A stretch of 64,000 nucleotides of DNA from Mytilus trossulus (GCF_036588685.1 NC_086379.1:85064001-85128000); one strand, 5' to 3'; counted from the first letter of the stretch, positions 3,101-9,100 are shown. Notes: generated by a model not told the origin, from the letters alone. Numbers and translations: made by a program.

Positions 3101-6100
3101 ATATGCAGAAACAACAAAAGAAAAATCGAAAAAAAAAGTGTTGCTAAACTTTTTTGGCTCAGTATATATCATGACTTTGAAAATAAAAAAAATATATTTT
3201 CATCAAATATTCAGATGTTAATAGGAGGCCTTCAAACATTTTACGTTCAACAAAAGTAGGAAAAATAACAATTAGCTTCATTATGAAATTTTGTTGTTTA
3301 ATTAATAATTACTCACAACATCATTTTCTTTAAAGGGTTGTATGCAATACAATATTGTTTATGACTATGTTGTAGCTCATCTTTAATTTTAACCAAAACT
3401 ATATCAGTGTATATCTCATATAGTCATTTAAGTTCAAATACCAAGTGGCATTTTTATTACCAATCAAGCATTGCAAACAAAAATTAGTGTAAAATGAAGA
3501 TTTTAAAATCTAATGTCAATTAAATGACTGAAATTTATTTCTGTACTTTTTTTTTCATGACCTTGATTCAAAATTCTGTTTTGGTCATTGACATTTCATA
3601 TTAAGACTTGACGCTTCACATCCCTTCTACTCAAACATTGTTGATATAATATTAACATATGTCTTATGGCACTTTTGTGTCAGTCTTATACTATAATACT
3701 GAGGAGTTATTTATCTGCTGTTTTAAGAAAGTCAAAATTTCTGTTGCAAAACTTCTTGAAATGTTAGATAAATATTTCTTTCCTCTGAATGCAATTTTTT
3801 CTAAACTATATTGTGATCTACCATACCTTCTGTGTGAGTGACAACAGTGAAGTTATATACTGATTTGACACCATCTTAACAGTACATGTCTGTAGAAGTA
3901 TAAATGGTAGAATGGACTCCATACAATGTACTGAATCCGTTCCAAGTTGTCCCATCATTAACTTTATACACTTGTGTGCTGAAAAATATAGAAATGATGA
4001 GAACTGAATGCAAAGATTTATATCTGTATAAACAGGAAAATAATCAAGGAACTTATGTTTGATTCAAGTATCTACAATGTTTTAAATTGATTTATATTAT
4101 ATATTTGTGACAGGTCTTACCCGAAATTAGGAGATATTCAGAGAAGTAATGTTTGGCTGTTGTATCTACACTCTTGACGATTCTGTCCAATATCTACAAA
4201 ATAAATACACATTTTAACAAGAATGTGTCCCTAGTACACAGATACTGCACTCACACTATCATTTTCTATGTTAAGTGGACCACAAAACTCTAATTTGGCA
4301 TTAAAATTAGAAAGATCATATCATAGGGAACATGTGTATCAATTTTCAAGTTGATTGGACTGCAACTTCATTAAAATCTACCTTGACCAAATACTATAAC
4401 CTGGAGCGGGACAGACATACAAACAAACGGACAGACAAACAAATGAACCGACTAATGGACAGAGGCAATGACCAGAAAACATAATGCCCCTCTACTAAAG
4501 TTTGGTAGGCAGGGCTTAACCCTTTCACCGATTGCTGCCCAGACAGAGGCTACTCTGAGACGATGGCTTCCCTGGTTACTATTACTCAAGTGGGAGGTCT
4601 TCATAATAAATGCCAATAAAAACTTGTTTGTACTTATTTGTGTATTTATTTCATTCACTAACACCCTGTACACAGTTTTGTTCATGTTTTGATATTTTTT
4701 TCTTCATAAAAATTCAAATTTTCCAATTTCGGCATATTTTGGGTGAAATTCTCAAAATTCTGCTTTTTAACCCCAAATCGTAATTTTTTAACCCAAAACA
4801 GGAAAATTTTGAAAAATTTTATGAGGCTGTACAAATTCCTCACATTGAACGATGTCCATTCCAAGTGTTTTGTACATAAAACCACGTTTTGAGTCAAAAA
4901 AGTATACTAGCTTGGCTTCAATTCTTCCATATTCTTTCAAAAAAAATGTTCCCTCATTTCAAATTCTCGTAAATTTCCTCTGATTTTGACACGGTTTTCA
5001 ACAAACAGAACCGCCATGTTTACACTTTCATCTGGGTATTCATCAAAGAAAGATAACTCATGTTTGCACTGTTTTGAGCGGGAAACATAAAAGAGGTATT
5101 CCAATCCCTATAAAACGGGACTCCTCGTCAGCTGTTTGAAGCGTGAATCCCGGTAAACCGGGACTCATCGGCGAAAGGGTTAAAAACAAGATGAAATAAT
5201 TCTTTTTCTTAGCTTAACTGTTAACTCATAACATAAATAATTAACAAACCTCCAAGAAATGCTCATATGCCAGTGGCCATTGTCATTTTGTTATTCTAAA
5301 ATTCCTTGAATTTTGATGAGAAATGGCTGTCCCAATTAATAGATTAACATTATATTAACTTCTCACATCTCAAAATTCCTCTAATCTCAGAGTATTTTCA
5401 GATGAACTTAACCAATGACTAGAGTTGACAGTCTGAGATATATCATGTACTCTAACCTCTAGAACTTAACCAATGACTAGAGTTGACAGTCTGTGATATA
5501 TCATGTACTCTAACCTCTAGAACTTAACTAATGACTAGAGTTGACAGTCTGTGATATGTCATGTATTCTAACCTCTAGAACTTAACCAATGACTAGAGTT
5601 GACAGTCTGAGATATATCATGTACTCTAACCTCTAGAACTTAACCAATGACTAGAGTTGACAGTCTGAGATATATCATGTACTCTAACCTCTAGAACTTA
5701 ACCAATGACTAGAGTTGACAGTCTGAGATATATCATGTACTCTAACCTCTAGAACTTAACTAATGACTAGAGTTGACAGTCTGAGATATATCATGTACTC
5801 TAACCTCTAGAACTTAACCAATGACTAGAGTTGCCAGTCTGAGATATATCATGTACTCTAACCTCTAGAACTTAACCAATGACTAGAGTTGACAGTCTGA
5901 GATATATCATGTATTCTAACCTCTAGAACTTAACCAATGACTAGAGTTGACAGTCTGAGATATATCATGTACTCTAACCTCTAGAACTTAACTAATGACT
6001 AGAGTTGACAGTCTGAGATATATCATGTATTCTAACCTCTAGAACTTAACCAATGACTAGAGTTGACAGTCTGAGATATATCATGTATTCTAACCTCTAG

Positions 6101-9100
6101 AACTTAACTAATGACTAGAGTTGACAGTCTGAGATATATCATGTACTCTAACCTCTAGAACTTAACTAATGACTAGAGTTGACAGTCTGAGATATATCAT
6201 GTATTCTAACCTCTAGAACTTAACCAATGACTAGAGTTGACAGTCTGAGATATATCATGTACTCTAACCTCTAGAACTTAACTAATGACTAGAGTTGACA
6301 GTCTGAGATATATCATGTACTCTAACCTCTAGAACTTAACCAATGACTAGAGTTGACAGTCTGAGATATATCATGTACTCTAACCTCTAGAACTTAACCA
6401 ATGACTAGAGTTGACAGTCTGAGATATATCATGTACTCTAACCTCTAGAACTTAACCAATGACTAGAGTTGACAGTCTGAGATATATCATGTATTCTAAC
6501 CTCTAGAACTTAACTAATGACTAGAGTTGACAGTCTGAGATATATCATGTACTCTAACCTCTAGAACTTAACTAATGACTAGAGTTGACAGTCTGAGATA
6601 TATCATGTATTCTAACCTCTAGAACTTAACCAATGACTAGAGTTGACAGTCTGAGATATATCATGTACTCTAACCTCTAGAACTTAACTAATGACTAGAG
6701 TTGACAGTCTGAGATATATCATGTACTCTAACCTCTAGAACTTAACCAATGACTAGAGTTGACAGTCTGAGATATATCATGTATTCTAACCTCTAGAACT
6801 TAACCAATGACTAGAGTTGACAGTCTGAGATATATCATGTACTCTAACCTCTAGAACTTAACCAATGACTAGAGTTGACAGTCTGAGATATATCATGTAT
6901 TCTAACCTCTAGAACTTAACCAATGACTAGAGTTGACAGTCTGAGATATATCATCTAACCTCTAGAACTTAACTAATGACTAGAGTTGACAGTCTGAGAT
7001 ATGTCATGTATTCTAACCTCTAGAACTTAACCAATGACTAGAGTTGACAGTCTGAGATATATCATGTACTCTAACCTCTAGAACTTAACCAATGACTAGA
7101 GTTGACAGTCTGAGATATATCATGTACTCTAACCTCTAGAACTTAACTAATGACTAGAGTTGACAGTCTGTGATATGTCATGTATTCTAACCTCTAGAAC
7201 TTAACCAATGACTAGAGTTGACAGTCTGAGATATATCATGTACTCTAACCTCTAGAACTTAACCAATGACTAGAGTTGACAGTCTGAGATATATCATGTA
7301 CTCTAACCTCTAGAACTTAACCAATGACTAGAGTTGACAGTCTGAGATATATCATGTACTCTAACCTCTAGAACTTAACTAATGACTAGAGTTGACAGTC
7401 TGAGATATATCATGTACTCTAACCTCTAGAACTTAACCAATGACTAGAGTTGCCAGTCTGAGATATATCATGTACTCTAACCTCTAGAACTTAACCAATG
7501 ACTAGAGTTGACAGTCTGAGATATATCATGTATTCTAACCTCTAGAACTTAACCAATGACTAGAGTTGAGTCTGAGATATATCATGTACTCTAACCTCTA
7601 GAACTTAACTAATGACTAGAGTTGACAGTCTGAGATATATCATGTATTCTAACCTCTAGAACTTAACCAATGACTAGAGTTGACAGTCTGAGATATATCA
7701 TGTACTCTAACCTCTAGAACTTAACCAATGACTAGAGTTGACAGTCTGAGATATATCATCTAACCTCTAGAACTTAACTAATGACTAGAGTTGACAGTCT
7801 GAGATATGTCATGTATTCTAACCTCTAGAACTTAACCAATGACTAGAGTTGACAGTCTGAGATATATCATGTACTCTAACCTCTAGAACTTAACCAATGA
7901 CTAGAGTTGACAGTCTGAGATATATCATGTACTCTAACCTCTAGAACTTAACTAATGACTAGAGTTGACAGTCTGTGATATGTCATGTATTCTAACCTCT
8001 AGAACTTAACCAATGACTAGAGTTGACAGTCTGAGATATATCATGTACTCTAACCTCTAGAACTTAACCAATGACTAGAGTTGACAGTCTGAGATATATC
8101 ATGTACTCTAACCTCTAGAACTTAACTAATGACTAGAGTTGACAGTCTGTGATATGTCATGTATTCTAACCTCTAGAACTTAACCAATGACTAGAGTTGA
8201 CAGTCTGAGATATATCATGTACTCTAACCTCTAGAACTTAACCAATGACTAGAGTTGACAGTCTGAGATATATCATGTACTCTAACCTCTAGAACTTAAC
8301 TAATGACTAGAGTTGACAGTCTGAGATATATCATGTACTCTAACCTCTAGAACTTAACCAATGACTAGAGTTGACAGTTTGAGATATATCATGTACTCTA
8401 ACCTCTAGAACTTAACCAATGACTAGAGTTGACAGTCTGTGATATGTCATGTATTCTAACCTCTAGAACTTAACCAATGACTAGAGTTGACAGTCTGAGA
8501 TATATCATGTACTCTAACCTCTAGAACTTAACTAATGACTAGAGTTGACAGTCTGTGATATGTCATGTATTCTAACCTCTAGAACTTAACCAATGACTAG
8601 AGTTGACAGTCTGAGATATATCATGTACTCTAACCTCTAGAACTTAACCAATGACTAGAGTTGACAGTCTGAGATATATCATGTACTCTAACCTCTAGAA
8701 CTTAACCAATGACTAGAGTTGACAGTCTGAGATATATCATGTATTCTAACCTCTAGAACTTCATCTGTTGTCATGTCTGTTCCTTTTGTACCAGAGAAAC
8801 TGTCTCCTAAACTTTGGATAACTGTTGTGAAAACTTTGAGTAGAGCTGTGATCTTAATGATGCATTCCTCAGGAAGTGGTAATTCTTCATCAGGGTAAGC
8901 TTGTCCAGAGAAACTGTATGTCAAATCCTATAATACCATAAAATATATAGAGAGTACCAAAAGACAACTACCCACTGGCAGAAAACTAGGATCACTTAGA
9001 AATGTTCATATCTCAAAATGTGTACAATAATATTGATATTAAGAGAGATGAAAAAGAGGAAATAATATTATTTAAGTGTCCTTTTTGGTGTAAGGGATGT

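What the first reader, a model, noticed from the sequence alone, without database searches (positions are those of the whole stretch)
5404..8761. ~58 decoy donors downstream of exon 9 of the NMD kinase SMG1
Seen: each 58-bp unit reproduces AAGTTCTAGAG|GTTAGA. Splicing from copy 2 adds 58 nt (frameshift), and read-through meets TAG at 8688-8690. The 6-nt microhomology AAGTTC occurs both in the exon end and at the far edge of the array (~5404), as expected for microhomology-mediated duplication. Known: SMG1 phosphorylates UPF1 in NMD, and NMD factors are often NMD-autoregulated. Inference: mis-spliced SMG1 transcripts would be NMD substrates, so copy number could tune a feedback loop.
Basis: partly seen in the sequence, partly recalled or inferred. 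Interest (0 to 1): 0.7.

Follow-up and report, generated by a model that had tools for sequence, protein, structure and literature searches.

The report
Splice-donor "mirage" repeat in mussel SMG1
The end of one exon of a mussel's RNA-surveillance gene SMG1, splice signal included, is copied 57 more times into the next intron, but the assembled transcripts use only the first signal and many other exon ends nearby are copied the same way, so this is likely harmless clutter of a kind already known from lancelets and humans rather than a feedback switch.

Summary
Positions 5404-8761 are a 58-bp array (57.9 copies) spanning the donor of SMG1 coding exon 9, with 58 exact AAGTTCTAGAG|GTTAGA copies. 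Any of the 57 decoys would give a premature stop. The feedback idea has no support. All 5 runs with spliced contigs (5 studies) join donor 1 to exon 10 and none shows a decoy joint, though contigs drop rare, NMD-degraded forms. Three DNA-type runs of a relative carry one unit only, so the array is young. It is not special to SMG1: donor-spanning arrays sit at 9 of 74 SMG1, 6 of 15 NOL11 and 4 of 36 NUP205 introns, and the largest in SMG1 (103 bp x 114) is at exon 20. This is a known class: lancelet 'mirages' and the human F7 intron-7 VNTR, where only the first donor is used. The scan noted the same kind before in this genome and others. What may be new is a number: 19 donor-spanning arrays against 5.3 expected, acceptors 7 against 5.3, which hints at a donor-anchored birth or survival bias. 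Three genes only.

The parts
5404..8761 (-). 58-bp minisatellite, 57.9 units; unit = last 11 nt of exon 9 + first 47 nt of intron 9; 12 unit variants with repeated blocks
8751..8927 (-). SMG1 coding exon 9 (59 codons, DLTYS...DEVLE), phase 0 at both ends
   Evidence: spliced contigs
8745..8753 (-). authentic donor GAG|GTTAGA (exon ends 8751); middling strength, 39 of 89 mapped donors score lower
8687..8703 (-). first decoy (copy 2, cut after 8693); its use would add 58 nt and stop at TGA 4140-4138; not seen in contigs
8688..8690 (-). TAG in frame with exon 9, met by read-through and by donors 3-58
8756..8761 (-). exonic AAGTTC, 5' copy of the flanking direct repeat (AAGTTA in the unexpanded contigs of organism C)
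5404..5409 (-). intronic AAGTTC, 3' copy of the flanking direct repeat at the far edge
4194..8750 (-). SMG1 intron 9, 4557 nt, of which about 3350 are array
4121..4193 (-). SMG1 coding exon 10, the partner of donor 1 in spliced contigs
1..44 (-). start of a second donor-spanning array in SMG1 (exon 14, 79 bp x 6.9; runs on left of the window)
12233..12343 (-). acceptor-spanning array at SMG1 exon 3 (39 bp x 2.8)
19266..21590 (+). NOL11 exon 3 donor-spanning array (46 bp x 50)
22198..23604 (+). NOL11 exon 4 donor-spanning array (95 bp x 15; 85 nt of exon per unit)
25439..27663 (+). NOL11 exon 6 donor-spanning array (44 bp x 51; only about 3 exon nt per unit)
35578..37876 (+). NOL11 exon 10 donor-spanning array (42/51 bp, about 50 units)
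42577..42856 (+). NOL11 exon 13 whole-exon-plus-donor repeat (96 bp x 2.9)
44320..46033 (+). NOL11 exon 15 donor-spanning array (73-bp units, then a derived 54-bp array)

Best explanation
This is a 58-bp minisatellite whose first unit spans the SMG1 exon-9 splice donor, and the assembled transcripts splice at that first donor; it likely arose by a recent local duplication and is likely tolerated without a regulatory role. Shown: the build, the use of donor 1, a one-unit form in a relative's DNA, and the same build at many other donors. Inferred: slippage or repair between the two AAGTT(C) direct repeats made two units, and unequal exchange then grew them to 58. Inferred from human F7: the spliceosome takes the most upstream of identical donors, so the copies leave with the intron. 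Any rare slip to a decoy would make a premature-stop message that NMD removes as noise.
For: Loose ends at 8751 equal the start of exon 10 in 4 of 4 runs and in X10; none at 8693. Contigs with no difference from the window's exon-9 end join there in X1, X2 and X22, and X1 and X22 also hold the 88-nt repeat contig. Contigs of X19, X20 and X23 stop matching at 8698 and go on for 90 or more other letters. A 31-nt piece of the unit occurs 45 times in the genome, all in this array. Repeated blocks in the variant string point to ordinary turnover. Same build at 19 of 125 donors in three genes. Precedent: PMC1557585 (F7: only the most upstream donor used), PMC3087553 and PMC3902484 (lancelet mirages, no aberrant mRNA).
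Against: Only contigs were on offer; they drop rare forms, and NMD would deplete decoy products, so leak is unmeasured. In human CBS and 6-16, two downstream pseudo-donors are used as well (PMC1557585 Introduction). All 58 copies keep the 17-nt junction intact while the 8 variant events fall in the other 41 nt; by my arithmetic p is about 0.06, not significant. The letters beyond 8698 in the DNA contigs were not shown, so their match to the window's left flank is inferred. Four of the five spliced runs are not on record as RNA.
Confidence: 0.88

Rival explanations
1. Leaky but unselected: copies 2 or 3 are used at a low, steady rate as in human CBS and 6-16, giving NMD-degraded SMG1 messages; length beyond a few copies does not matter.
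For: The decoys equal the true donor over 11 exon and 6 intron nt, and the donor is of middling strength. Precedent in PMC1557585 Introduction. Contigs cannot exclude it.
Against: No decoy joint, although all 57 decoy joints share their words and would add up. F7, lamin B2 and PDGF use the first donor only.
Confidence: 0.08
2. One reading: array length sets the share of SMG1 message sent to NMD and so tunes a feedback loop.
For: 57 of 57 decoys lead to a premature stop. NMD factors are feedback-regulated, and raising SMG1 enhanced NMD in human cells (PMC4417159 passages).
Against: No decoy use seen. One unit only in 3 of 3 DNA-type runs of organism C. Same arrays in non-NMD genes: 6 of 15 NOL11 donors against 9 of 74 in SMG1. 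A stop is expected from almost any retained AT-rich intron piece. The known feedback mostly runs through long 3' UTRs. In F7 the more distant copies do not compete.
Confidence: 0.03
3. Assembly artefact: the array or its length is a product of assembly.
For: Three DNA-type runs show one unit only; no read spanning the array was seen.
Against: Two independent runs hold the head-to-tail junction contig (X1, X22). The units carry 12 structured variants. The one-unit contigs also differ at many other places, so they are another haplotype or species.
Confidence: 0.01

Closest known systems
Lancelet 'mirage' minisatellites (Adh3, globins BflGb6/BflGb9, troponin C, PGBD5). Seen: passages of PMC3087553 and one passage of PMC3902484; the original Adh3 paper was not held.
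   Same: The unit spans an exon-intron border and repeats the splice signal; unit size lies in the 10-160 bp range; splicing stays normal; copy number varies.
   Different: A mollusc; 58 copies against 3-6 in the globin cases; here counted at 19 of 125 donors in three genes, with a lean to donors, whereas the globin paper shows one case at each border.
Human F7 intron 7 37-bp VNTR. Seen: abstract, Introduction and Discussion of PMC1557585.
   Same: The first unit holds the exon end and donor; identical pseudo-donors follow; the most upstream donor is used.
   Different: 5-9 units with 4 exon nt against 58 units with 11 exon nt; in F7 the copies were shown to work once donor 1 is mutated, which is untested here.
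Human CBS intron 13, interferon-inducible 6-16 intron 2, lamin B2 and PDGF intron 4 VNTRs, as listed in the Introduction of PMC1557585; the primary papers were not read.
   Same: Donor-spanning arrays of 10-25 units.
   Different: CBS and 6-16 also use two downstream pseudo-donors; no such use was seen here.
Feedback control of NMD factors (plant UPF3 and SMG7, most human NMD factors). Seen: passages of PMC4417159.
   Same: An NMD factor's own message as a possible NMD target.
   Different: Known cases mostly rest on long 3' UTRs, not on a young intronic repeat.

Membership tests
Mirage / splice-junction minisatellite | Tandem array with unit of 10 bp or more | tested here: met
   58 bp x 58, 96% matches
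Mirage / splice-junction minisatellite | Unit spans a true exon-intron border and repeats the splice signal | tested here: met
   Donor 8751|8750 by homology and by spliced contigs; 58 exact junction copies
Mirage / splice-junction minisatellite | Locus-specific, made from the gene's own sequence | tested here: met
   45 of 45 exact genome hits of a 31-nt piece lie in the array
Mirage / splice-junction minisatellite | Normal splicing kept (authentic site used) | tested here: met
   Donor 1 in 5 of 5 runs with spliced contigs; shows the main form, not the absence of rare ones
Mirage / splice-junction minisatellite | Copy-number variation between alleles or species | tested here: met
   One unit in X19, X20, X23 against 58 in the window; alleles in between were not measured
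Mirage / splice-junction minisatellite | Somatic length instability (lancelet Adh3) | not testable with these tools
   Needs small-pool PCR or long reads of tissues
F7-type first-donor selection | Copies are functional and take over in order when donor 1 is lost | not testable with these tools
   Needs a minigene
AS-NMD autoregulatory (poison) element | Alternative product has a premature stop upstream of exon junctions | tested here: met
   57 of 57 decoys, in exon 9-10 of 75
AS-NMD autoregulatory (poison) element | Alternative isoform is made and rises under NMD block | tested here: inconclusive
   Not seen in contigs; no NMD-blocked or raw-read runs were offered
AS-NMD autoregulatory (poison) element | Element conserved across species (criterion recalled, not from a call) | tested here: not met
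   Absent from 3 of 3 DNA-type runs of a close relative

The most novel reading that the evidence does not exclude
Mussel minisatellites are seeded preferentially at 5' splice sites. In three genes about one donor in seven carries a ladder of its own copies: 3.6-fold over chance, 7.6-fold for arrays of 5 or more units, with no excess at acceptors. That would mean a duplication process tied to exon ends, filtered by first-donor selection, and thousands of natural, polymorphic tests of how identical donors are chosen. SMG1, with nine such ladders, might lose a small allele-dependent share of its message to NMD.
Probability: 0.35. Interest if true: 0.5.

Novelty: new member of a known kind. Interest (0 to 1): 0.18.

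Why it matters
As a single locus it matters little: it is one more mirage, and the largest one in SMG1 is elsewhere. It warns that such arrays can mislead gene models (two database SMG1 models show repeated exon ends) and that 'decoy plus stop' in a regulatory gene is no sign of regulation. The wider count could matter. If the donor excess holds genome-wide, mussels offer many polymorphic arrays to test 5' splice-site choice in an invertebrate and to ask why duplications start at exon ends. I found no such count in print in my searches, which cover open-licence papers only.

Tried and rejected
Hairpin as seed or as donor mask: folds of the first and last two units are no better than shuffles (z -0.44 and -0.80). 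A 10-of-11 inverted match between the exon end and the far flank was noticed by eye and left as likely chance. Decoy acceptors or mini-exons inside the unit: the 7 AGs have 5-8 pyrimidines in 13 nt against a mean of 9.4 at real acceptors; rejected as weak. Mobile or dispersed repeat: rejected. Repeat-contig depth (43.7 and 65.7 in X1 and X22) was not used, since contig depth is no measure of level; X2, X11 and X10 have no cover on the repeat, which shows nothing. Only 8 of 24 listed runs could be laid, and the loose-end table was cut (125 rows not shown). Chromosome-end effect: four 50-kb blocks beside the window hold 10.5-24.9 kb of arrays against 0.7-8.3 kb in four interior blocks. So array density is regional, but interior NUP205 still shows the donor excess. 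NUP107 was located and fetched but not mapped for lack of a close protein. Searches used a model with one misplaced SMG1 donor; searches use the corrected one. PMC11887611 and PMC10078293 (passages) had no bearing. No supplements were read.

Full report
Observation. The array is real and as described: 5404-8761, period 58, 58.1 copies, 96% matches. On the - strand it holds 58 exact copies of AAGTTCTAGAG|GTTAGA and a 59th AAGTTC at the far edge. Of 57 complete units, 54 are 58 nt, two are 53 and one is 56; they fall into 12 variants whose order shows repeated blocks. A 31-nt piece occurs 45 times in the 1.3-Gb genome, every time inside this array, so the repeat is made from local sequence.

Gene. 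The exon at 9389-9559 matches human SMG1. With a near-identical full-length protein (P0095) and 200 kb fetched beside the window I built a 75-exon model of 3587 aa with one terminal stop. 8927-8751 is coding exon 9 and exon 10 begins at 4193. The head-to-head neighbour from 14756 is NOL11; its one hit is named nucleolar protein 11-like of Mytilus californianus, at 85-94% identity in most exons. The genome is therefore likely a Mytilus-type mussel.

What decoy use would do. Donor 2 adds 58 nt and ends at a TGA in exon 10 (4140-4138). Donors 3-58 and read-through end at TAG 8690-8688. All 57 give a stop early in a 75-exon gene and would be NMD targets.

What is used. I laid 8 of the 24 listed runs on 8665-9600. 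In 4 of 4 runs, and in X10, spliced contigs leave exon 9 at 8751 and go on with the first 30 nt of exon 10; these come from five studies. No loose end at 8693 appears. In X1, X2 and X22 the joining contig has no difference from the window's exon end, and X1 and X22 also hold an 88-nt contig of the head-to-tail repeat, so array carriers likely splice at donor 1. Limits: these are contigs, which drop rare forms; only X11 is on record as RNA, though the others show the intron-8 joint; NMD would deplete decoy products.

Age and origin. In 3 of 3 DNA-type runs (X19, X20, X23; organism C; three studies) one contig runs from exon 9 through a single unit, stops matching at 8698, the edge of the next AAGTTC, and goes on for at least 90 unlike letters. 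This is what a one-unit allele looks like; the letters beyond were not displayed. It supports birth by duplication between short direct repeats and shows that the array is not conserved. In those contigs the exon copy reads AAGTTA (Ile), as in P0001 and P0095, while the window reads AAGTTC (Leu). Whether that change came before the array or from it cannot be told.

Not special to SMG1. Counting TRF arrays of period 10-200 inside the coding spans (98 of 102; 4 dropped for period or copy number), arrays span 9 of 74 SMG1 donors, 6 of 15 NOL11 donors and 4 of 36 donors of NUP205, an unlinked gene 16.5 Mb into another contig. The largest in SMG1 is 103 bp x 114 at exon 20. Placing one seed per array at random on the collapsed genes gives 5.3 expected donor hits against 19 seen (0 of 100,000 draws reach it), and 5.3 acceptor hits against 7 (p 0.28). 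For arrays of 5 or more units: 16 against 2.1 and 2 against 2.1. Without SMG1: 10 against 1.8. NUP205 alone: 4 against 1.2 (p 0.026). A test without TRF found a copy of the 16-nt junction in the adjoining intron at 16 of 89 donors and 4 (one mismatch) or 7 (two) of 89 acceptors; Fisher p 0.008 and 0.07. Inner-intron controls gave 3-7 of 81-86. Caveats: three genes, two of them chosen by the finding; a uniform null that ignores base composition; and the window lies 0.3 Mb from the end of its 85.4-Mb contig in an array-rich region. Acceptor arrays do occur (SMG1 exon 75, 12 units; NUP205, 13 units), and earlier notes of this scan report very large ones in other animals (unchecked), so the lean to donors may not be general.

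How it most likely works. Inferred: a short-homology slip or repair doubled the exon end and intron start, and unequal exchange grew the array. Because the new copies lie downstream of an intact donor, the exon is unchanged and the copies leave with the intron. In human F7 the most upstream of identical donors is always chosen (PMC1557585: abstract, Introduction, Discussion). CBS and 6-16 are listed there as leaky cases, so a small leak here is possible.

Known kin and novelty. Lancelet 'mirages' are defined as minisatellites whose unit spans an exon-intron border without disturbing splicing (PMC3087553 passages; PMC3902484 passage). The original Adh3 paper was not held. The array meets every feature I could test. 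This scan has noted the same kind many times in this genome and others; I had reached the reading before those look-ups. NMD-factor feedback is real but mostly runs through long 3' UTRs (PMC4417159 passages). Verdict: new member of a known kind, interest 0.18; feedback tuning about 3%. The donor excess is the one lead worth a genome-wide count.

Noticed in passing
G000:C7 left of the window, window-relative -6902 to -18642 (L002-L003): SMG1 exon 20 donor array, 103 bp x 114 (11.7 kb), each unit carrying 89 nt of exon; the largest mirage in the gene.
   Followed up: partly
L045 (G000:C10:16563349-16564575): One NUP205 intron consists wholly of a donor array (51 bp x 6) abutting an acceptor array (71 bp x 13); protein P0215 reads from the first donor to the last acceptor.
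   Followed up: partly
window 8756: Leu (window, array haplotype) against Ile (one-unit contigs, P0001, P0095) at the base that lengthens the flanking direct repeat from 5 to 6 nt; could predate the array or be conversion from it.
   Followed up: partly
P0006 and P0001: An annelid SMG1 gene model repeats the exon-7 end about seven times, and a mussel model repeats the exon-14 end; likely mirages taken up by gene prediction.
   Followed up: no
window 14501 and 14756: SMG1 and NOL11 start codons lie head to head about 255 bp apart, which suggests a shared promoter.
   Followed up: no
window 63595-64000 and L059-L060: A 38-bp array runs on for more than 12 kb beyond the window (325 copies in the next 12.3 kb), followed by a 54-bp x 85 array; the region near the contig end is 20-60% minisatellite.
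   Followed up: no
window 9076-9145: A short dispersed element in SMG1 intron 8, hit by many contigs in the DNA-type runs.
   Followed up: no
window 51500-52573, 53875-55084, 59232-60245, 61261-62670: Long ORFs that look by eye like transposon or LINE fragments; not searched.
   Followed up: no
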